DNA of 58,044 nucleotides, counting the filler, from Gonapodya sp. JEL0774 (lineage: Eukaryota): the NCBI GenBank assembly GCA_027604505.1. It is 6 parts of 6 records of this genome, joined end to end, with 100 filler letters (N's around TTAATTAATTAA, not from the genome) between each part and the next. Parts side by side here need not be neighbours in the genome. Positions count along the whole stretch, not along the records: positions 1 to 9,776 come from JADIIX010000404.1; 5 more parts are not named here. One strand, 5' to 3'. The notes beneath the pieces were generated by a model that saw only the letters and a list, made by a program, of their open reading frames with translations, had not been told where the DNA came from and searched no databases. Shown piece after piece: positions 1 through 47,300 of the stretch. The position numbers were made by a program, and so were the translations under genes. Within the stretch, counting starts at the first letter, position 1. Each line of letters starts with the position of its first letter.

Positions 1-2194
1 AACAAGAATGCTACCCACGGTCTCTTCGAATTTGTTCTCGGGGTAGACGAAGACCGTCAAGATGGGACCGAAAATTTCTATCAAATCAAGGAGAGAATCA
101 CCGTGGGGATTTGGTCAGACACGCGACGAGTGAGACATGATCGAGCGCACGAATCACCACTCACCCTCGGTCATAGATTTGTAATGTGGGTTGGTGGTTA
201 CGATGATAGTCGGGTGCACAAAGTACCCCTGAGAATCGTCACCTGGTCCGCCGAATTGTTTCACATCAATAGAATTCACATCAAACAATATTCGCACCGC
301 GGATTGCGCAGAGCGACAAAGCCCCTTTGATATGACATGACTCACAGATACCTCCGACCAACACCTCCGCGTCCGGCGCAGCCTTGGCGTGCTCAATGTA
401 CGACTTGCACTTGTCGAAGGAGGACTTGTGGATGACGGCCGAGACGAATGTCGAGAAATCTGTCGGGCAGGTGTGGGAACGACAGTCCGGTCGTGAAACC
501 GCAGTATCGTAGGCCAAGATGCAAAATGGTCGTGCTCCCAAACGTAAACCAGAAGCGACGTGCCCTCTCCTCTATACTGAGACTCGTTCCTGTCACTCCC
601 CTCAACGACCCACCTTCGACCCCGCCCACCTTCATCGCCCGTACCCCTTCCACCAACCCTTTCTTGACCTCGTGCCACACCGTATCGGGGACGTACAATC
701 TCGACGTGGCGCTGCACTTTTGCCCAGAATACTCGAACGCGCCGCGGAGGGTGCTGTTGATGGCGGTGGGCAGGTGGGCGGAGGGGTGGATCATGTGGAG
801 GTTCTTGCCGCCGGTTTCGCCGACTTGGAGGGTCAGCGGGAGGGGGTGTGATGGGGAGCGGGAGAGGGAGAGAGAGGGGCACCGTCTTTGGGCTTTAGGA
901 GCAGGGCGAGCTCATCGGAGTACAAGACGCGACGGAGACGTACCGATCCTCGGAAAGTTCCTATACCCATCCAAGTTTCCCGCCACTCGCTTCCACAATT
1001 CCCTAAACACGGAGCTACTGCCTGTAAAATGCAGTCCTGCAAAGTCTTTGCTGTCGACCATGGCGCCGACGACCTGCTCGGCCTCCCCGGGGACGAACTG
1101 GATCACACCAGGCGGTAAGCCGGATTCGTGGAGGATGGAGAGCACGAGGTAGGATGATAGTAGGGAGTTGGGAGAGGGTTTCCAGAGGACGGAGTTGCCT
1201 GAGGTGAGCGTAGAGTGTGGTGGTTCAGCATAAACTGTCGAAAGGCTGATTTGCGTCCGATTACGAGGCGACCCCAAGACATGGAGCAATATTTCGCCAT
1301 TTGACTCGTTGTTTCTACTCACCCATCAACACTGGGGCACCAGCCAAGTTGCCCCCGATGGCCGTAAAATTGAAAGGACTGACCGCCGCGACAAATCCTT
1401 CCAAGGGCCTGTATTCGACTCTATTCCACAGGCCATCTTGCTGAACCGACAGTGGCTGCTGACTGTAAATATCCCTCTGGGCGTAGAGTACGTTGAAGCG
1501 GAAGAAATCCGCCAGTTCGGCGGCCGCGTCGATTTCTGCTTGCCACACAGTTTTCCCTTGGCCCAGCATAGTGGCTGCGAGAAGTTGGTACCGATACTTG
1601 GTGGCCACGAGGTCGGCGGCTTTGAGGAAGACTGCGGCGCGGTCAGAGAACGGGAGCGAGGACCAGAGCTTCTGGGCTTTGAGGGCACCCGGAATGGCTT
1701 GTGAGGTAATAGTGTAGGCGTCGACGGAGTGAGCAGAAGCAAGTAGAGTGTGGTGGTTGTGGGGAATGTGTTGGAGGAGTGGTTGGGAGGTGGATGAGGT
1801 GGAGTGGAGTGTTTCGACGCCATTGACGACAGAGGGGATTTGGATTGGCAGTTGAGAGCGGAGGTCAGCAAGCGCGGACACAAGATTTCCACGGTCTGTG
1901 GAGTTTGGTGGATACGAGCCCTGGAGGTTGATTGGTGTTTGGAGTTGGGGAGGTGGAATGGGTCAATAACATGGAGTTCAAAACGGAGTGAGCAGGCTGA
2001 ACAGAACACAAATCAGTGGAGGGGATGACGTGTGCACAAACCATTGGCTCATTGACGATGTCCGGGAGCGCGAAGAAGCCGAGTTGGGCGGTGCGCGTTG
2101 CAGTGGACTCGTTGCGGGAGTGCGGAAGGGGATGGGGGAAGGAGAGAGGGCAGACGGGACGGGAAACACGTGGGACAACAACGCGCAGAGACAT
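1..2194 (-). CDS. PUT2: Delta-1-pyrroline-5-carboxylate dehydrogenase (ALDH4 family), multi-exon, 3' end outside window
   Basis: Exon translations contain MLGQGKTVWQAEIDAAAELADFFRFN, EYRPLEGFVAAVSPFNFTAIGGNL, WKPSP, FTGSS and catalytic AFEYSGQKCSATSRLYV. ATG at 2194 opens an Arg/Ser-rich presequence-like segment. First GT donor at 2041. Confidence 0.93.
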
Positions 2195-3149
2195 GGCGGC
2201 GCTATATGGAGATGAAATGGAGAGAGTCCGATGTTTTCCCAAATGTTTCGAACGCACCTGTCGGCTAAACTCATATCCGATTACCCTACCTATTTATCCA
2301 TTTGGGAACAGCGTTATGGGCTTTTGAGGAGAGTTTTCCGCATTACTACGATAATCTACGGCGAGCATTCTTAGAAGGTGGATTATCCGACATATAGCAC
2401 CCGGAACAAGTGACTACGTGTCCAATCAACCAAGTAGAGTGCTCACTTGCTGTGGGCAGCCACCTTCGATGCTCCAGCCCAGCTTCACCAAATATCTCAT
2501 AACGTCACAGTTGTTGGCATACGCCTCAGCCTCCAAGGCCACCACCGTTCCTGCTCCTCTCACTTTACCTTCCGATCGTGCAAGTACAAGCCATGTAGGA
2601 CTGCACACACCGACTTGTAAATCGCTTCGACGACCAAGTGTTGCCCAGGTTCGGATCTAAAACATTCTAATACAAAACCAAATTGCCAGGGTACCGGCAT
2701 TGGAGACTTTCGCGGATACCAAGGAGACGCTCTGTCCGATGGGGTGCATTATGAATATACAAGTGAAATAGACGGCTAGAGTCCAACTCTGCGCCTGCTC
2801 ACCTGACCAATAGAGTTGACTCTTCTGGGGAGTCCGGTCAGGTGTTCGCACTAACGCTTTCAGTGGATAAACTGTGGTGGCGTTTGGCGAGGACGATGGG
2901 GAGCTGCGGTTCTATTCCTGTGGAAACAGCTCGTCCACCCCAACCTATCGGTACCAAAACAATCGTAGAGAGTGGAATGGTCATTCTCGAAGATGATGCG
3001 TCAAGGGAGGGAGGCAACGTGGTATGTCTCTAGGAAGGTAACACCGATTTGGTTCCAGGTCCAAAAATGATCCAACCTAAGCGTATCCGAGACTCACCAC
3101 ATAGACGGATCAGCTTATAAAATATCTCTCATCCGTCGCAGAATAGACC

Positions 3150-5271
3150 GCCGTTATAGTTGTTCCGACAACAGGTTTCTCGTCACCCGAGTCCAGAGGC
3201 CGGGCTGAGGTGAACGAGGTGTGATGTCCGTGGAGAGGGGACAAAAGGGTCGAAGTGATGGAAGCGGGGAGGTGGACATAACATCGTCAGTGGGGGCAGT
3301 CTCGAGTTTCTTTCCTTTCGCGGTCCGCGTGTCATGCATGCCGACGAAATTCATCTCGAATCTACGTCCAGTACTCATCCAGTACAACGACATCCCACTT
3401 TCCGTCATTCCCCGTCGTTGAATCCAATCCATCAATATATTCAACCCGCGGACACGAGCTTCAATCCGAATCCGTCCGCCACTGCGGATCTCGCACTCAC
3501 CTTATGCTCTGAGCAGATATGTGCAGCTCTGCCTGCACCTACACCACGACCTAGTAGTCCCCTAAGGCCTACACCGACGGGTCGCGTGAAAATGCTCGAT
3601 CAAGGAGAACGTTGGACGGGGGCGGGTCTGTGATGTAGGAACGAGAGGCCGACGGAACATATGTGCAGGAAAAGGGTTAAACGGACTTGACTTACCTTCC
3701 CCCAAGGGATCCCGTCTGCACGAGATCTAGTAGTCCCGTCAAGACTCCGCAACCCATACCCTTTGGCTCACCATGCGAGGTTGTGGTGTTCGACCGTCCA
3801 CCCTGTCGGAGATTCCCCCCATGACGGTCTCCGGGTCAGCCGTCCACGCCACCGTAATTTCAACTGACTGACCAGCACACCGTGTGACTGCACTGTCCTG
3901 AAATTACTCGACACCTGATGTCTCGTGCCAGAAACGGCCCGTCCCACTTACCATCCTCACCACTGCCCCGTCATCACTTGCCTCAGCGCTCGCTCGCACT
4001 TAGTGGCCCCAAAGTGGTGATGAGGGTTTGGAGCGGTCGGTGGAGGAGGGGATGCGGATGAGGAAGATCACGATGTGAAGGACTGTCGAAGAGAAGCACG
4101 GTGAAACTCGGATGGAGTCCAGAGATGTTAAAACACACCTTGAGGATCAAAATGCATCCGCCGATCTGTAACTTCCAGCGCACCTCAGGTCGTGGTTGGA
4201 TTTGGAGCAGATCATGCATGTCACTCGGGTAATGAGCTGCGTGTCGACGGAAATGTTTGATTGTGAAAGGAAAGACACGGCTTCGTGAGGTGTGGTCGGC
4301 GGGTGCGAGATTTGTCGGTACGGAAATTGATAGGGGGATGATGGAAAAACCGGATACAGATTTCAAGGTGACAAGGAGAGGCAAGATACCGGTAGGATCT
4401 AAGACCGTGAGAAGAAAACACGACTTTGAGAGTGTGAGCGACACGTGCCTGCTTTGTTTTTACACCGCTTCCTTGCATCGTCTCCCGTTGTTGCAGTCAC
4501 ATTAAAGGGGGTGCTCATCCTGTCGCCTTCCCGCGCCACTGTCCACCACTAAGCTGCCTCGTCCGTCATCATGCCCATGATCCGAGTTTAACGTTTCCCG
4601 TCGAGGAACATCCGCTCTCCACTACAGCACTCACCAATTGCTCTGAAGTCCGACTGGTGGACATCCCCGCCAACCGCATCTCCACGACCTCGTAGCAGCC
4701 AAGACAAACGAGTAATAGTGACGTCCAACTGCGAGGAAGGTGAGTTGGGGAACCGACTGTGCCGTGGACACGAGGGAGTGGGAACGGCAGGTGGAGGAAG
4801 TACGCGAGGGAAAAGTACGGGAAGCGATGTGAGGCTCACCGGGTCGATTGGAGAAATAACGAGGCTACAAAACGAGATGCGGCGATGCATGTTCTGCTTT
4901 CGAGTGCGACAATAAAGGTTCCGTGATGGAGGAAGGGGCGAGCGAGAGTGGGGGGAAACAGAGAAGTATGAGAGGGGGAAGAGGGAAAAGAGCGGAAAAA
5001 CACAAAAGAGCTCGCTCAATTCAAGTAGAAAACTTACCGAGGCAACGGATTTTGTCGGTGGGACCATTGCGGGACGTGTCGTGACTGGTTCGCCCACATA
5101 CTTACACTTCTACGACACTGTCTCAGAGAACAACATCTCAGATTTCATTCTCTCAAGTCTCTCCGACTGACTTCTCTCAGGTGCAAGTCCTGAATCTTTT
5201 CCTGTACTTTCATTTTCTGATCTGATCTGATCTGATGACAAATATCTCAATTTCGAAAGTATCTGTGATTT
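3150..5271. mobile_element. Probable degenerate insertion or TE-derived segment that truncates the HeLo gene
   Basis: HeLo similarity stops abruptly at about 5272. An AT-richer stretch with (TCTGA)4 follows at 5216-5235. A 279-bp segment (4828-5106) has LTR-like ends TGTAAG...CTCACA on the minus strand. No TSD, RT or transposase motif was recognised, and the left boundary is a guess. Confidence 0.3.
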
Positions 5272-5352
5272 GTAGTTGAAGCATTCTAGACAGGTGTTGA
5301 AGGTGGCGGCGATACCGACAGCGCCTGAGACGATTCCGAAAGCGTCAGCCAT
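5110..5352 (-). pseudogene. Truncated HET-S/HeLo-domain effector; only the first ~27 codons are homologous
   Basis: MADAFGIVSGAVGIAATFNTCLECFNY aligns without gaps to the HET-S N-terminus as recalled (MSEPFGIVAGALNVAGLFNNCVDCFEY). After Y27 the ORF runs into unrelated sequence and stops at 5110. Confidence 0.75.
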
Positions 5353-5676
5353 GATAAAGGGCGATGATAATCCTACTGTGACTGGGAAACGATTGCTCTG
5401 TGCAGTTTGGTGGGTGGGATGGAGGTCAAAGTAACTGCGCCACCTGAGGTCATCCTCAGCAAGTTCAGTCGCGTGACTCTTTCCAAGGACTGCGAACGGG
5501 AGAAGCTGTCGGGCCTTGTTGGTGTCGATCCCACTCCTCCGTCTGCTCTGAAGTGATGTGGATGGGACCGTGTCCCTTTTGAATTCCTTACCACACGGCC
5601 TTCTAGGCTCTGTGCCTCACGGCTCCCAAAACTACCACTCGCACTCCCCCACTCCGAATCCCTTCCCTTCTTGGAT

Positions 5677-8600
5677 ATGGCGATGTCCGACACCGCTACT
5701 GCTGCTGAACCACACCTTCAGAGTCCGTCGCTATCTCCGCAAATAGTGAATAATATCACCTACTCAGTAGGGGCCCAGTACATTGACGGCAATGCGCGTT
5801 TACACATGGGCAATTCTATCCACCAAGGCTCGAGGTAAGCTCGACCATTCAAGGCTCCGCGTGCTTACTGTCCTTACCTTTGACCGCTGTAATATCATGA
5901 ATGCCATCAGTGCTTCACAATCCAAAGTTGGCGCGACTCCTGGCTCCTCCCCGCCCCACTACTACATTCCCTTTTCGAGGAACAAACAGTTTGTGGGCCG
6001 GCGCGACGTACTCGCCACTTTGAAAAGAAAACTCTTCGACAATAAGGACTGTCACAGTGTATCTCTCCTGGGACTGGGTGGTGTCGGGAAGACGCAGATC
6101 GCACTGGAGTTTGCGTATAGTGTAGAGGACACATATAAAGATTACTCAATCTTTTGGTTTCCTGCACTGAGTATGGAGAGCTTTGAGCAGGCATGCAAGG
6201 AGGTAGCTATAAAAGTTGGGATCTCTCATATGATAGGGGAAACAGAAGACGTGAAGGAGGTTGTCATGCGGTATTTGAGCGAGGAGGCAGCCGGGCGGTG
6301 GCTCTTGATTGTGGACAATGCCGATGATGCAGATACTGTGTTTCCCAAGCAGGGACGCGGTATTCATGACTACCTTCCACACAGCAAACACGGACTCCTT
6401 CTGTTTACAACCCGCTATGGAGAAATGGCAGATGGACTAACGGAACATCATTTCATTGACGTGGAAGGAATGAGTCACGAAGACGCCACAGAACTATTCA
6501 GGAACTCTGTCCAACCCAAACACAAGCTCAACGACAATTCGAGCTTAAGAGAGCTATTGAATGAGCTCGCATACCTTCCACTGGCGATCTCTCAGGCAAC
6601 CTCTTTCATTAACGTTAAACGAGTCACCATAAAAAAGTACTTGGAAAAGATGCGTGCAATTAACGAGGAACAAGTGATTAAGCTCCTGGATGACACAAGT
6701 TCTAAGAAATCTCAGAAATCAGTAGCAACAACGTGGTTAATTTCGTTTGGGCAGATGTCCAAGGAAAGTCCAAACTCTGCAAAGCTTCTTGCGTTCATGG
6801 GATGTGTAGAATGGAAGGCGATCCCTCAAAGTATTCTGCCAACGGAACCAGAAGAGGACATAGACACAACCATCGGCATACTGAAATCGTACGCTTTTGT
6901 GTCTTCTCGGGAGGTACAGGGCTCAGAGGAGGAACGTTACGATCTCCATCGCCTCGTACATCTGGCAGCACGGAACTGGCTACGTGGGCGAGTAATTGAT
7001 GATGCTCTCTCACAGAAGGAGACCCTCTTTTCCAAAACGATGAAAGAGGCGATCAAACACATCTCAAAGATATTTCCAATAGACGAATGGCAAAATCGAG
7101 AGCGATGGAGGGAGTACCTTCCACACGCTTCAAAAGTTCTCAGTGAGGAAGATGTCAAAGAGCTCACTGAGAAGTACGATCTGTGCCTCAAGGTCGGGCG
7201 ATGTCTGATCAAAGATGGAAGAGGAAAGGACGCAATCCCTGTACTCGAAATATGCCTCAAAGGAAGGCAAGATGTCACACAACATTCTCTGCTCTTGCCC
7301 CGGAGTAATTTCAAGGAGAACAACGTTGGCATGCCTTCTACCTCAAGTACGACTCGGGGCGGCTGGTCTCCGCCCCCCATTTCGAGCTTTCAATGGGGAC
7401 AGCAGGACCGACAAAGTGAAAAATTATCACCAGTTGTTGCAGCCGTGCAAAAAGACAAGTCGCAAGATGAAACTCTCGTGCTGGAAGCGCGGTATGCACT
7501 CGCCCTTGCCTGCTTTTCTGGTGGACAGGCGGTCAGAACGGTGAACATTCTGGAAGAGATGATCAAAACCAGACAGAAAAGATCAAAAAAGGAGGACAAA
7601 AGTCTGGAATCACTGGAGTGGCAGCTCCACCTTGGTAGAGCCTACCTTGCCTGCAACCGCCAGCACGATGGCAAGAGAGTGTTTGAGTATGTGGGAAAGT
7701 TGTCTCCGGATGGTCACCCTCTCAAAGCCTTGGCAATCCACGAGTTTCGAAACATTGAAAAGAGGAGTGAGTGAGTTATTTTTATCTACCAACGTCTGAT
7801 CTCACTGGGTGACTGTTTCAGGGAAATGGATGGACACCATCAGCATCGACAGCATGATAAATGCCATGTCAAACTCCTCCAATGCGAACACTCTTAGTTT
7901 CAAAGGTGAGACAATTTGGTCCACAGTGATATTTTGCTGTTTCGTTGCATGGGGACAAGCGCCATGGCAGCTGACTATCATGCGACATTTACGTACATTT
8001 TCTTCGTGATTGTTCTAGATCGAATTATTGGTGTCGTGGGTGCACGGGCGCTTGCTCATGCGCTGAAGCAGGGCACGGTGACTTATCCTTTAACAAAATT
8101 GGATCTCTCAGGTGCATATGAGTAGATTGCCATATCTCGCCGGAGTGCTTCCGTACTCCAATGGATGCCTCTTCACATCTTAGGAAGTTCCGTTGAAGTT
8201 GAAGGACTGCAAGCCCTTGGCGACGCACTAGCAAGAACCACTACGCTGATTGAACTGAATCTTGAAGGTGAAACTCCTTGAAGGATGCGTCGGGAACGGC
8301 GAAGGCAGCAGCGGGAACAACATTCTCACATCTTTGACCCCACCAGACAACGTTTTGATTGGCGAAAAGGGTGGGAACATACTCAAAGAAGCCTTGAAGG
8401 GCCTCGCATCCCTTGAGAAGCTCAATTTGAACAGTGAATGCACAACGTCGACCCTTTCTCCTCCGAAACCTTCCCTCAAGCTCACGCTACACATCTTACA
8501 ATTCCTTGCAACCACTCACTTCTACCCTTCTGCTCTGACTCATCGCACTCACTTCCCAGAGAACGGGATCGGACCTGAGGGAGTGAAGGCCCTCGCGGAC

Positions 8601-9661
8601 AGGCTCAAGGATCTGACCAGCCTGACCACGTTGCATCTCGCAGGTGCGTTGGAGCGGCGGAGGGGTGTGGTTTTCGGTGGTGTGGTGGCGTGTGCGACAC
8701 GCGACTCACGGTCTCTCGGTCTCTCGGTCCGATCGTTCCGATTGACTTTTTCGATCGATCGATGTCTTCGATGGTTCCAATGTCTACCATTGTCTAGGGA
8801 ACAGCATCGGACCCGAAGGAGCCAAGGCCCTCGCGGACAGGCTCAAGGGTCTGACCAGCCTGACTTCATTGGATCTCGGATGTGAGTTGGAGCGGCGTGA
8901 GCGGGGGCGGGGGGTGCGGTGCGGTTTTCGGTCACTCACTGTCTCTCTGTGGTGGCGTGCGCGACACGCGACTCACGGTCTCACGGTCTCTCTCGGTCCG
9001 ATCGTTCCGATTGACTTTTTCGATCGGTCGATGTCTTCGATGGTTCCATTGTCTACCATTGTCTAGCGAACAGGATCGGAGACGAGGGAGCCAAGGCCCT
9101 CGCGGACGGGCTCCAGCATCTGGCCAGCCTGACCACGTTGCATCTCGCACGTGAGTTGAAGCGGCGGAGGGGTGTGGTTTTCGGTGGTGTGGTGGCGTGC
9201 GCGACACGCGACTCACGGTCTCACGGTCTCTCTCGGTCCGATTGTTCCGATGTCGATGGTTCGATCGGTCGATGTATTCGATGGTATCATTGTCTACCAT
9301 TGTCTAGTGAACAGGCTCGGAGACGAGGGAGCCAAGGCCATCGCGGACGGGCTCAAGGGTCTGGCCAGCCTGACCAAATTGGATCTCGGATGTGAGTTGG
9401 AGCGGCGTGAGCGGGGGCGGGGGGTGCGGTGCGGTTTTCGGTCACTCACTGTCTCTCTGTGGTGGTGTGCGCGGCACGCGACTCACGGTCTCACGGTCTC
9501 TCTCGGTCCGATTGCTCCGATGTCGATGGTTCGATCGGTCGATGTATTCCATGGTTCCATTGTCTACCATTGTCTAGCGAACATTATCAGAGACGAGGGA
9601 GCCAAGGCCCTCGCGGACGGGCTCCAGCATCTGGCCAGCCTGACCACGTTGGATCTCGTAG
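5677..9661 (+). CDS. NLR-like STAND protein: N-terminal HET-s-like amyloid motif, NB-ARC, TPR-like helices, >=9 RI-type LRRs; 3' truncated by contig end
   Basis: Exons 5677-5834, 5911-7766, 7822-7905, 8019-8111, 8184-8267, 8347-8433, 8560-8643, 8798-8881, 9067-9150, 9308-9391, 9578-9661. All are GT-AG and in frame (2782 nt, 927 codons plus 1 nt). NB-ARC motifs: PFSRNKQFVGR, Walker A GLGGVGKTQ, Walker B WLLIVDNAD, LLFTTR, YLPLAI, YDLHRLVH. The NB-ARC call is strong; the link to the LRRs rests on intron 7767-7821. Confidence 0.8.
5761..5820 (+). other. HET-s-related amyloid motif (R0-like) YSVGAQYIDGNARLHMGNSI
   Basis: Ungapped register match to the HET-s prion-domain repeats as recalled: R1 NSAKDIRTEERARVQLGNVV and R2 NSVETVVGKGESRVLIGNEY. 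Shared features are S-V, G at position 10, A-R-hydrophobic-x-hydrophobic and G-N. Confidence 0.7.
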
Positions 9662-9776
9662 GTGAGTTGAAGCAGCGGAGGGGTGTGGTTTTTAGTGGTG
9701 TGGTGGCGTGCGCGACACGCGACTCACGGTCTCACGGTCTCTCTCGGTCCGATCGTTCCGATGTCGATGGTTCGAT
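8560..9776 (+). repeat. Tandem array of near-identical LRR exon+intron units (two-exon period ~510 bp)
   Basis: 84-nt exons start at 8560, 8798, 9067, 9308 and 9578. Introns alternate 154/185/157/186 nt and all four complete ones end in TGTCTACCATTGTCTAG. Confidence 0.95.
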
Positions 9777-38884: not shown

Positions 38885-38984
38885 NNNNNNNNNNNNNNNN
38901 NNNNNNNNNNNNNNNNNNNNNNNNNNNNTTAATTAATTAANNNNNNNNNNNNNNNNNNNNNNNNNNNNNNNNNNNNNNNNNNNN
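38885..38984. other. Artificial contig linker
   Basis: N44-TTAATTAATTAA-N44. Confidence 0.98.
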
Positions 38985-39770
38985 GCACTGGCCCAGTCGA
39001 ATCTTGGCGTGATGTACGAGGACGGGCGGGGCGTGCAGAAGGATGAGGCGGAGGCTGTGAAGTGGTACAGGAGGGCCGCTGACCAGGGACATGCATGGGC
39101 CCAGTCATATCTTGGTTTCATGTACGAGATCGGTTGGACCGTGCAGAAGGACGAGGCAGAGGCTGTGAAGTGGTACAGGAGGGCCGCAGACCAGGGGAAC
39201 GCAGTTGGACAAAACGGTCTCGGGTGGATGTATGCCACTGAACGCGGAGCATCACAGGATGTACATGAAGCGAAGAAACTCTTCACAACAGCTGCGGATC
39301 AGGGGGATGCCGGGGCCCAGTTTAATCTCGCATACCTGTTTCACTTGCATGGTCTCGGTGGGTGTGAGCGTGATGTGGGAATGGCGGAGGAACTTCTTAA
39401 AAGATCAGGTGATAGTGAGCGGACGTTTGCTCTTGGAATTCTCCATGAGCGTGGGTGGGGCGGAAGAGCGAAGGATGAACAAACAGCAGTGGAATACTAT
39501 TTGAAAGATCTCCGGTGCGCGGCAAAGACTTTACTAGCCGGCATGTACGAGGACGGTCGAGGAGGATTAGATCAGGACCTGGGGACCGCCGTGCGCTTGT
39601 ACACAGAGGCACTAGACCAGCGGGACGTGGTCGCTGCAGTGTCGCTCGGTCGAATGTACGAAAAGGGACTCGGAGGGTTGGCAAAGGACATCAACAAGGC
39701 GATTGAGATGTACGAGTTGGCGGGGACGTGGGAGGCGCGAGTCGCGTTAGAGCGCCTGCGGGGGTCGTGA
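38985..39770 (+). CDS. SEL1-like repeat protein, 3' part; paralog of the gene ending at 47403
   Basis: AQS.LG.MY..G..VQKDEAEAVKWYRRAADQG repeats; C-terminus AGTWEARVALERLRGS. Confidence 0.92.
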   Translation, partial: ALAQSNLGVMYEDGRGVQKDEAEAVKWYRRAADQGHAWAQSYLGFMYEIGWTVQKDEAEAVKWYRRAADQGNAVGQNGLGWMYATERGASQDVHEAKKLFTTAADQGDAGAQFNLAYLFHLHGLGGCERDVGMAEELLKRSGDSERTFALGILHERGWGGRAKDEQTAVEYYLKDLRCAAKTLLAGMYEDGRGGLDQDLGTAVRLYTEALDQRDVVAAVSLGRMYEKGLGGLAKDINKAIEMYELAGTWEARVALERLRGS

Positions 39771-43990: not shown

Positions 43991-44378
43991 CACTCGAGTC
44001 GAAAGTTCAATTATTAAACCGGTGATCTGTCGAGGATTGGCTTCGAATGTCAGATGGCTGTATTGCGAAAATCCTCACAGAGCTGAAACGGGGGACCATT
44101 CTCAAACTGCTGATTAGTGCAACACAACAACACATGAACATCCTTTTTGGACGCATTAATGCTTGTAATTTGGCCACCACCAGCTATTATGCCGATTTAA
44201 TTGTCACACGACGAATGTATGAAGTATAAGAGATTTCCTGGATGGGAGCCAATCGTGTTGTGCTTTGGAGGTGTGTCCCATTGAGGAGGACCACAGCAGC
44301 CGGGATAAGTCACACCTCCCTCTCAAGCCACACCACAACACGCTGTGTCTCCAAGACAGTCCCCACGAGGCCGGCACG

Positions 44379-47300
44379 ATGCTCCCTATCGCAGAGTTTT
44401 TCAAATTAATTACATCGGCTCTTGAGAAAAACGCCGCTGATGGATCCGCCGATGCGCGCAACGACGGGACCGCCCTCGTCACGGGAATCCCTGGGGCTTG
44501 GAAAACAACCCGCGTCCAACCCCACTTGTCTACATTGGCCTCTCCAACCGGGAGAGAAGACGCTCCGAGGCCCACATCGGCAGTTCCCGACAGCGGGCAA
44601 TCCGCTCTCGTGACACCCCTCGATGGAGCTGGACCGTCTCAACCAGCCGACGTGGCGCCTGCGCGGGAATACATTCTCGATCATACGGAGCATTGGCAAA
44701 CTGCGATCCTTCCCAATTTTACTGGACTTTTGAATGCAGAACCAATTGCCCACCAGCTTCCACTTCCCGTGCTTCCTCCCGCGGGAGCAAACATCCCGAA
44801 AGATGTAACCCCAAAGACATCAATCTCTGAGCTTGCGAAAATTCCAGATGTCTGGGAAATCAAGGAATCTGACTTGATCTGCTCTGTCAGTGAAGTGCTA
44901 GGAAAGGGAGGGTATGGTGTCGTATACTGTGGAAAATGGCTCAACGACATTGATGTCGCCGTCAAGGTGATAACTTTTGCAAAGGGATATGACATGAAGA
45001 TGAGAGGCGTTTTCAGTTATGCGGTCACCGGGACTCACATTGCTGATCTCTTGCAGTCTTTCGATGACGAGGCAACCACGTGGTACAACTTGACCTCTCA
45101 GCATGTACTGCGTTTGTACGGTATCGTGAAGCGAGGAAACATGTTTGCGTTCGTCTCCCCAATCTTGGAGTATGGAAGCGTGCCGAAATATCTTGAACGA
45201 TTCAACGGGGACGAATATCTAAGGCGAGCTGAAGTACTCTTGCTGGTGCGTCCATATCACTTGTGTGGCTGCAGTCAGCCACGTTTTAGGTTCCATTTCA
45301 CTTCTAGCTTCTCGATATTGCTCGCGGGTTGGAGTACTTGCACAGCTTGAACATAGTCCACGCGGATCTCTCTCCGGACAATGCTCTTGTAGACAGAAGG
45401 AAACACGCAGTTTTGACCGATTTTGGAACGTCGAAAGTTTTGAGTGCAGGGACATTTGACGCCACTGGTGGTCGTGTTGGGAAGGCACGATATATGTCAC
45501 CTGAACGATTGCGAGGAGAGGGGACAACAAAGGCAGACGATAGTTACGCATTTGGGATGCTGATGTATTCGGTATGTAAAGTGGGAGTGGTCGTTGGTTT
45601 TAATCCTTTGATAACCTTTACCGATTTCATTTTGAAGCTCTGGAACAAGAAGGAACCTTTTGGAGAACTTCCCACCATGCAGTTCTATGCAAGTCTACAT
45701 AAAATATGCCATCATCCACATGACCGCTCAAACATTCCGGCAGACGCTAATATGCCCGCGGAACTCGAAACGTTGATGCAACAATGTTGGAATCCAGATC
45801 CAACCAAGCGTCCACCGTTTACCTCAATCACCAGAATTCTTTCTCAGATCACGTAAGTAGTTTGCTTCTCTATCCATCTTCCTGATTCTCATCACATGCC
45901 ACCTAGTCCTGAGCGACCACCAGCCGAGATTGACTCTGTCCCTGAGGCAGACTTGATTGGTGATGCAGAATATTTATGGACTTTGGCAGATGGCTTTCAC
46001 CATGGACGTCAGGGAAGGGAACAAAACTTGGACAAGGCATCGCAGGTTTATTTACGTGCGGCAGAATTTGGCCACGTGGAGGCGATGCATCAACTCTACT
46101 TTTTCTACAAGAATGGGCTTGGAATACTTCCAAAGAACTCCGAATCTGCATTCAAGTGGTGCCAACGTGCAGCTGAGCACGGTAACCTTCAGGCACAATT
46201 TGACCTGGGTGATTGCTTCTATTTCGGTCAAGGACACGCAATAGACCACAAGGAGGCAGTAAAGTGGTGGAGGAAGGCCGCTGAACAGGGCTCCGTACAG
46301 GCGCAGTATAATCTTGGTGTCATGTATGCGAATGGACAGGGCGTGCAGAAGGATGAGGCGGAGGAGGTGAAGTGGTACAGGAGGGCCGCTGATCAGGGTT
46401 ATGCACCGGCCCAGTATAATCTTGGTTTCATGTATGCGAATGGACAGGGCGTGCAGAAGGACGAGGCGGAGGCTGTGAAGTTGTACAGGAGGGCCGCAGA
46501 CCAGGGTGACGCAATGGCTCAGTATAATCTTGGTGTCATGTATGCAAATGGACAGGGTGTGCAGAAGGACGAGGCAGAGGCTGTGAAGTGGCACATGAGG
46601 GCCGCCGACCAGGGTGACGCTGATGCGCAGGTCGGTCTTGGTGTCATGTATCGGAAGGGCAGGGGTGTGCAGAAGGATGAGGCGGTGGCTGTAAAGTGGT
46701 ACAGGAGGGCCGCTGACCGGGGGCACGTACCGGCCCAGTCAAATCTTGGTTTGATGTACCAGAACGGGTGGGGTGTTCACAAGGATGAGGCGGAGGCTGT
46801 GAAGTGGTACAGGAAGGCCGCTGACCAGGGTGACGCAATGGGGCAAAACAACCTCGGGTGGATGTACGTCAGCGGTCAAGGTGCATCACGGGATGTACAT
46901 GAAGCAAGGAAACTCTTCACAGCCGCCGGGGAGCAAGGAGATGCTTGGGCACAGTTCAATCTTGCGTACTTGTTCCACTTCCATGGTCTCGGTGGGTGTG
47001 AGCGTGATGTGGGAATGGCGGAGGAGCTCTTTACAAGATCAGGTGATGGCGAGCATGATTGGGCACTTGGGATCCTCCATGAGCGTGGGTGGGTGGAAGA
47101 GCAAAAGATGAGCAAAAAGCAGTGGATTACTATTTGAAAGATCTCAGATGCATGGCAAAGACTTTACTGGCAGCAATGTACAAGGACGGTCGAGGAGGAT
47201 TAGATCAGGACTTGGCGGCTGCTGTGCGCTTGTACACAGAGGCTCTCGAAGAGGGGGACGTGGTCGCTGCAGTGGGTCTCGGTAGGATGTACGAGAAGGG

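What the first reader, a model, noticed from the sequence alone, without database searches (positions are those of the whole stretch)
5677..5910. Hidden first exon encodes a HET-s-like amyloid signalling motif at the NLR N-terminus
Seen: ATG 5677 opens MAMSDTATAAEPHLQSPSLSPQIVNNITYSVGAQYIDGNARLHMGNSIHQGS. A GTAAGC...CATCAG intron (5835-5910, phase 2) joins it in frame to the NB-ARC exon. The ORF track misses this exon. The 20-mer YSVGAQYIDGNARLHMGNSI aligns ungapped with HET-s repeats R1 and R2. Established: NWD2-type NLRs carry one R0 copy of this motif, which templates the amyloid fold onto an adjacent HET-S effector. Inference: this receptor signals by amyloid templating.
Basis: partly seen in the sequence, partly recalled or inferred. 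Interest (0 to 1): 0.85.

Follow-up and report, generated by a model that had tools for sequence, protein, structure and literature searches.

The report
Amyloid-tagged LRR immune receptor in Gonapodya
A gene of the water-mould-like fungus Gonapodya carries an unannotated HET-s-type amyloid motif in front of an immune-receptor domain and likely ends in leucine-rich repeats, but its neighbouring cell-death partner gene is cut to 27 codons, so any signalling would need a partner elsewhere in the genome.

Summary
ATG 5677, the peptide and the 76-nt phase-2 GT-AG join are as described; the public model HDU93_006776 (Gonapodya sp. JEL0774) misses the motif. The 21-mer at 5755-5817 ranks 1 of 61,034 six-frame windows against an HRAM profile built here (1/10,000 shuffles) and matches the r0 of an intact HeLo/NLR pair far better than chance (score 57, next 27). 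Two paralogs differ from it almost only at third positions of the motif frame. (1) A head-to-head HET-S/HeLo gene starts at 5352 (-) but keeps only 27 codons; no effector repeats lie in the window. (2) Nine phase-1 exons extend the frame to 927 aa without a stop, five scoring as LRRs; surveys report no LRR in fungal NLRs. Splicing is unconfirmed (no RNA run listed) and no intact Gonapodya effector was found. Verdict: a real HRAM r0 on an NB-ARC/TPR-like/LRR receptor in a zoosporic fungus; a new variant of the NWD2/HET-S kind, signalling in trans or orphaned.

The parts
5677..5834 (+). Predicted exon 1: 26-residue leader, HRAM r0, short linker
   Evidence: Open frame, first in-frame ATG after the stop at 5554-5556; absent from the public model
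5755..5817 (+). HRAM r0 21-mer (V5, Q8, I10, R15, L16, M18, G19, N20)
   Evidence: Rank 1 of 61,034, 1/10,000 shuffles; score 57 against the r0 of locus L001, next 27, 0/100,000 shuffles; third-position bias in paralogs
5835..5910 (+). Predicted intron 1, 76 nt, phase 2, GTAAGC...CATCAG
   Evidence: Sequence; donor-compatible residues in read-through paralogs P0004 and P0008; not confirmed by RNA
5911..7766 (+). Exon 2: NB-ARC, helical and degenerate TPR-like region (unspliced frame stops at 7772-7774)
   Evidence: Pfam NB-ARC E 3e-14; TPR_14 only E 0.026; aligns to TPR-bearing paralogs
7822..9661 (+). Nine predicted phase-1 exons of 84, 87 or 93 nt, ribonuclease-inhibitor-like LRR array, cut by the contig end at 9776
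   Evidence: 11-exon model is 927 aa with no stop and GT-AG introns; last five exons each hit LRR_6 at E 2e-4 to 7e-3, below the curated cut-off, first four hit nothing
5272..5352 (-). HeLo/HET-S remnant: first 27 codons only (start of an 80-codon ORF ending at 5110)
   Evidence: Pfam HeLo E 2e-4; PDB 2wvn E 3e-5; 22/27 identical to P0121-P0123; HeLo profile matches only positions 1-27 in the window, E 3e-12
5353..5676 (.). 324-nt spacer between the two divergent start codons (shared promoter inferred)
   Evidence: Sequence; HeLo ATG to r0 is 403 nt here and 256-1111 nt in 10 other loci

Best explanation
This is an NB-ARC immune-receptor gene whose likely first exon encodes one HET-s-related amyloid repeat (r0) and whose likely last exons encode leucine-rich repeats, lying head-to-head with a HeLo cell-death gene cut to 27 codons; on activation it would stack its r0 copies into a beta-solenoid seed and template a two-repeat HeLo effector that would have to be encoded elsewhere. 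Shown: the motif, its HRAM match, the head-to-head remnant, the open 11-exon frame, a Gonapodya-only clade of paralogs. Inferred: both splice events; that ligand binding at the TPR/LRR end drives oligomerisation; amyloid stacking and templating (by analogy with NWD2/HET-S); the existence of a partner in trans. My separate odds: motif is an r0 by descent 0.95; intron 1 spliced 0.85; LRR exons joined 0.8; a working partner exists elsewhere about 0.55.
For: Profile test independent of the motif (profile seeded from the HeLo remnant's relatives): 17.7 bits, rank 1/61,034. In 10 of 38 metagenomic HeLo loci the same profile finds a divergent r0 at 14.1-27.9 bits (range cut by my 14-bit threshold), 256-1111 nt from the HeLo start. 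The r0 of L001, whose HeLo is of the subgroup nearest the remnant, gives 9/21 identity and score 57 against -3 to 28 for the other nine; it shares Q8, which is in 1 of 38 r0 entries I saw in parts 1 and 4 of 5 of the PMC4518210 supplement, that one also beside this HeLo subgroup. The remnant scores higher on this subgroup's N-termini (median 111 vs 99, 20 vs 59 rows, p 1e-4, rows related). Frame test: public models of P0004 and P0008 read this region in a shifted frame; all 8 of 8 and 7 of 7 differing codons need a change at the motif frame's third position, against 1.3 and 0 at its second; the exon-2 control is reversed (11.7 vs 4). A short r0 exon with a candidate donor 10-31 nt after the motif is seen in 6 of the 10 loci, among them L021, a 34%-identical NB-ARC relative. 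LRR_6 passes the curated cut-off in paralogs P0003 and P0004; P0005 aligns across the TPR-LRR junction at 44% identity. Non-adjacent pairs are suspected in print (PMC9815663 passage), and 57 of 155 HeLo-HRAM genes had no adjacent NLR (PMC4518210). Another chytrid, Cladochytrium tenue, has a full HeLo with two repeats of the same subgroup (P0178).
Against: No intact Gonapodya HeLo among named hits: 0 of 3, 0 of the 120 listed of 156, 0 of 11; these searches are shallow and many hits are unnamed. Candidate introns after r0 in other fungi are phase 1, this one phase 2. Paralog P0003 has Ile where the acceptor AG needs Ser, so that acceptor is lost there; an Arg codon five positions on could supply another. 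The intron differs less from P0004 (4 of 25 codons) than the motif stretch does (8 of 14), which fits recent conversion but also a read-through frame. Position 18 is Met here but Asn/Asp in the subgroup's effector repeats, and P0004 and P0008 cannot have Asn at 20. The motif scores below the median of held-out members (17.7 vs 25.8). P0004 and P0008 share some changes, so the two frame counts are not independent. Without splicing at 7767 the protein stops at 7774 with no LRR.
Confidence: 0.5

Rival explanations
1. Orphan r0: the exon is spliced and the motif is a true r0 by descent, but with the adjacent effector destroyed and none elsewhere it no longer signals, or serves only to cluster receptors.
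For: Effector cut to 27 codons; no Gonapodya HeLo among named hits; drift at positions 18 and 20; loss of one partner of a pair is described for het-s/nwd2 (PMC3321046 passage).
Against: Motif frame intact here and compatible in two paralogs on other contigs, with third-position bias; the whole genome could not be searched.
Confidence: 0.32
2. Intron 1 is not spliced: translation starts at 5792 or 5897, as in the public models, and the motif is non-coding residue upstream.
For: The frame 5771-7774 is open through the intron; five public paralog models start in or before the intron; acceptor lost in P0003; low divergence of the intron from P0004.
Against: Changes in the 5792 frame fall on its second codon positions, 8 of 8 and 7 of 7 codons, the opposite of exon 2 (Fisher p 0.004); donor-compatible G-K kept even in distant P0008, whose intron is otherwise unalike.
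Confidence: 0.1
3. Assembly artefact: the HeLo gene is whole in the organism and was cut by a mis-join near 5272, or the NLR/HeLo part is ascomycete contamination joined to host DNA.
For: Fragmented assembly (contig of 9776 nt); nearest named non-Gonapodya relatives are all filamentous ascomycetes; a short (TCAGA)n run lies about 40 nt past the break.
Against: Eight Gonapodya paralogs on contigs of eight different lengths form one long-branched clade, SH-aLRT 99; the TPR-LRR junction is shared with P0005.
Confidence: 0.08

Closest known systems
NWD2/HET-S of Podospora anserina (PMC3321046 passages; PMC4518210)
   Same: Single N-terminal r0 before the nucleotide-binding domain; divergent neighbouring HeLo gene; G19, R15 and hydrophobic 5, 10, 16, 18.
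   Different: NB-ARC with TPR-like and probable LRR end instead of NACHT-WD; Gln at core position 8; r0 at residue 27; effector truncated; host is a monoblepharid, not an ascomycete.
HRAM subgroup of Hypoxylon CI-4A 318309 (P0130), Aspergillus/Penicillium P0121-P0124, locus L001 and Cladochytrium P0178 (my 'I-type'; no HRAM number assigned)
   Same: Best r0 matches (9/21 each, shared Q8); best matches of the HeLo remnant (21-22 of 27); L001 also has a long leader (31 codons) before r0.
   Different: Met18 instead of Asn; L001's receptor does not match this NB-ARC and has no intron right after r0; those effectors are whole.
Plant NB-ARC-LRR and animal NACHT-LRR receptors (as described in PMC4986451 passages)
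   Same: Nucleotide-binding domain followed by predicted LRRs.
   Different: The NB-ARC here groups with fungal NB-ARC-TPR proteins, a TPR-like stretch precedes the LRRs, and the N-terminus is an amyloid motif; resemblance would be convergent.

Membership tests
HRAM (HET-s-related amyloid motif) r0 | Gly at position 19 and Arg/Lys at 15 | tested here: met
   G19 and R15 in 5755-5817; definition from PMC4518210
HRAM (HET-s-related amyloid motif) r0 | Generally hydrophobic at 5, 8, 10, 16, 18 | tested here: inconclusive
   4 of 5 met (V, I, L, M); position 8 is Gln, as in the published Hypoxylon r0 and 3 of 10 r0 found here
HRAM (HET-s-related amyloid motif) r0 | Scores above chance on an HRAM profile | tested here: met
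   1/10,000 shuffles, rank 1/61,034 on a home-made profile; the published profile was not used
HRAM (HET-s-related amyloid motif) r0 | Single copy, low charge, N-terminal to an NLR nucleotide-binding domain | tested here: met
   One copy, 2 charged residues, NB-ARC follows if intron 1 is spliced
HRAM (HET-s-related amyloid motif) r0 | Forms a beta-solenoid amyloid and seeds a cognate effector | not testable with these tools
Canonical HET-s motif (HRAM1, Pfam HET-s_218-289) | Pfam match; Asn at position 3 | tested here: not met
   No Pfam hit at E<=1; Tyr at 3. Only 38 of 155 HRAM proteins match that Pfam
NWD2/HET-S-type gene pair | Adjacent HeLo gene | tested here: met
   Divergent HeLo start at 5352
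NWD2/HET-S-type gene pair | Effector whole, with two C-terminal repeats | tested here: not met
   Only profile positions 1-27 match; no r1/r2 in the window
NWD2/HET-S-type gene pair | NACHT-WD receptor (NWD2 proper) | tested here: not met
   NB-ARC above cut-off, NACHT below, no WD40
NBS-LRR architecture | LRRs on the same polypeptide as the nucleotide-binding domain | tested here: inconclusive
   Open spliced model and public paralog models with both; all are predictions without RNA support

The most novel reading that the evidence does not exclude
Gonapodya took up an ascomycete-type NLR/HET-S module, expanded it and grafted one-repeat-per-exon LRR arrays onto it, giving a separate origin of the NBS-LRR receptor inside fungi that signals through an amyloid motif in a zoosporic lineage; several paralogs hide the same motif exon from annotation and converge on a shared effector elsewhere.
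Probability: 0.3. Interest if true: 0.82.

Novelty: new variant of a known kind. Interest (0 to 1): 0.63.

Why it matters
HRAM-bearing NLRs are common in filamentous ascomycetes, so the motif alone is ordinary. The setting is not. A 2014 survey found no NLRs in chytrids and no LRRs in fungal NLRs (PMC4986451 passages); a 2025 review repeats the absence of LRRs (PMC12881547 passages); the 30 of 34 chytrid rows I saw in a 2022 table carry no amyloid motif. If the splicing holds, amyloid signalling extends to a monoblepharid fungus and the NBS-LRR layout has arisen again, here with an amyloid N-terminus. It also shows that gene models hide these exons, so protein-based surveys undercount them.

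Tried and rejected
RNA or DNA runs: none was listed, so no reads were laid; this is not evidence either way. No whole genome was held. Pfam, PDB and ESM Atlas searches with exon 1 gave nothing. Complex prediction of four motif copies was not available; no verdict. One search's codon comparison used a wrong offset (5789) and is void; one search is the corrected run (its table of allowed residues does not depend on the offset). Chaining minus-strand exons behind the HeLo remnant gave arbitrary products and was dropped; Pfam on those frames gave only a weak Suc_Fer-like hit. Repeat search of 2000-5900 showed nothing that explains the break. GC3 of the NB-ARC exon (0.52) is lower than the LRR exons (0.66) but inside the window's range (0.47-0.62), so it says nothing on transfer. 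Trees are quick, unrooted and made of near hits only; I ran no one-clade test, so transfer from ascomycetes is a lead, not a result. Rows dropped: 34 of 120 HeLo proteins were left out of the profile (no clean repeat pair), r1 was used for 39 of 86; three H-type rows were mis-sorted into the I-type profile and removed; 51 selected rows went into the HeLo tree. Literature searches for an earlier report found none on this organism's NLRs; the library lacks most subscription papers.

Full report
Source and setting. The window is several contigs joined by N-linkers; the finding lies on the first, 1-9776. The long frame from 5897 is 100% identical to HDU93_006776 of Gonapodya sp. JEL0774, on a 9776-nt contig. 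That Gonapodya is a monoblepharid is given in tables seen.

The observation. Exon 5677-5834, intron 5835-5910 and 5911-7774 give 673 aa without a stop. The public model starts at ATG 5792 in another frame, reads through the intron and lacks the motif.

Is the motif more than chance? Pfam, PDB and the Atlas see nothing, which is expected for most HRAMs (38 of 155 match the Pfam). I fetched 120 HeLo proteins starting from relatives of the neighbouring remnant, extracted repeat pairs (86 kept) and built position profiles. The 21-mer at 5755 scores 17.7 bits, reached by 1 of 10,000 shuffles, and ranks first of 61,034 windows, next 10.4. It scores 18.9 on the 'I-type' subgroup (0/10,000) and 9.8 on the His-type subgroup (46/10,000). 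Held-out members have a median of 25.8 and hmmsearch E-values are modest, 0.005-0.29. A scan of metagenome contigs returned 38 HeLo loci, 31 with at least 600 nt upstream. Ten carry a divergent r0 above my 14-bit threshold, 256-1111 nt from the HeLo start; the window's distance is 403. The r0 of L001, an I-type locus, scores 57 against the window motif; the next best window 21-mer scores 27 and no shuffle of 100,000 reaches it. The other nine score -3 to 28. Gln8, the one departure from the hydrophobic pattern, is shared with L001 and with the published Hypoxylon r0.

Is it coding? Against the window's codons, 8 of 8 and 7 of 7 differing codons need a change at the base that is third in the motif frame, with 1.3 and 0 at its second position; in exon 2 the pattern is reversed. 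Allowed residues in both paralogs fit A-R-hydrophobic-Q-hydrophobic-G. This is the mark of purifying selection in the motif frame, at least in the past. Against: the two counts share changes; the intron is oddly similar to that of P0004; P0003 has lost the acceptor AG; candidate introns after r0 in 6 of 10 other loci are phase 1, not 2. No sequencing run was listed.

On the minus strand ATG 5352 opens 27 codons matching the HET-s N-terminus (E 3e-5) and 22 of 27 residues of Aspergillus and Penicillium HeLo proteins. A HeLo profile matches only positions 1-27 anywhere in the window; the ORF runs on as unrelated sequence to a stop at 5110. The layout is that of het-s and nwd2, two divergently transcribed neighbours. 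The remnant is nearer I-type than His-type N-termini, the same subgroup as the r0, so both look like halves of one ancestral pair. With no prion domain it cannot be templated. No intact Gonapodya HeLo appeared among named hits, but these searches do not cover the genome. Cladochytrium tenue has a whole I-type HeLo and a partial second copy.

Second: the far end. A donor at 7767, just before the stop, leads to nine phase-1 exons of 84-93 nt; the 11-exon model is 927 aa with no stop and runs to the contig end. The last five exons each hit LRR_6 weakly. Paralog models P0003 and P0004 pass the curated cut-offs for TPR and LRR_6, and P0005 aligns across the junction. The eight Gonapodya NB-ARC domains among 120 hits form one clade (SH-aLRT 99) among filamentous-ascomycete and unnamed relatives; the tree has no outgroup.

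Mechanism. By analogy with NWD2/HET-S, ligand binding at the repeat end would oligomerise the NB-ARC domains, stack the r0 copies into a beta-solenoid seed and convert a two-repeat effector, which exposes its N-terminal helix and kills the cell. Here the effector must lie elsewhere (about 0.5) or be gone (about 0.3). Non-splicing (0.1) and assembly error (0.08) are the remaining rivals. Because HRAM families need not cross-seed, the right bench partner is an I-type prion domain, not HET-s.

Comparison and novelty. It meets the sequence definition of an HRAM r0, is not canonical HRAM1, and fails membership as an intact NWD2/HET-S pair. Papers seen: PMC4518210 (parts 1-3 of 5 of the text; supplement parts 1 and 4 of 5 and one search), PMC9815663 (passages; supplement searches, two files unsearched, one cut, 30 of 34 chytrid rows seen, all without a motif), PMC12258605 (passages, section 12, 17 supplements searched with no 'LRR' hit, one file too large to read; it included G. 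prolifera and allowed LRRs, and counts as few as one NLR in some chytrids), PMC3321046, PMC4986451, PMC12881547, PMC11291939 and bioRxiv 2020.07.06.188508 (passages only). Searches found no report of amyloid-motif or LRR-bearing NLRs in this lineage. Verdict: new variant of a known kind, interest 0.63.

Noticed in passing
window 7822-9661 (+): One LRR per 84-nt phase-1 exon, with near-identical introns between the last repeats, suggesting recent exon-plus-intron duplication; array cut by the contig end.
   Followed up: partly
P0004, P0008, P0002, P0003 (other Gonapodya contigs): Public models start inside the motif exon in a shifted frame or at the intronic ATG; several paralogs probably hide the same r0 exon.
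   Followed up: partly
P0178, P0241: Cladochytrium tenue encodes HeLo proteins of the same subgroup, one whole with two HRAM repeats; they fall inside an ascomycete group on a long branch in an unrooted tree.
   Followed up: partly
P0005, P0010: Gonapodya paralogs with a PNP_UDP N-terminal domain in place of the motif; P0005 shares the start of the LRR extension.
   Followed up: no
window 2400-5100 (-): Many GTRAGT donors suggest a multi-exon gene right behind the HeLo remnant; only a weak Suc_Fer-like hit (E 0.03) at 4147-4362. Whether the 27-codon helix is spliced onto it is unknown.
   Followed up: partly
window 150-2200 (-): Aldehyde dehydrogenase family gene (Pfam Aldedh E 2e-15), by its sequence probably P5C dehydrogenase (recalled label).
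   Followed up: no
window 44223-47137 (+) and 38937-39770 (+): Protein-kinase-like frames followed by tandem Sel1-like repeats (labels by eye), on two different contigs.
   Followed up: no
L002 826, L008 3491, L018 3803 (-): r0 motifs head-to-head with HeLo genes, followed by sequence that does not look like an immediate nucleotide-binding domain; L002 and L008 also have Gln8.
   Followed up: no
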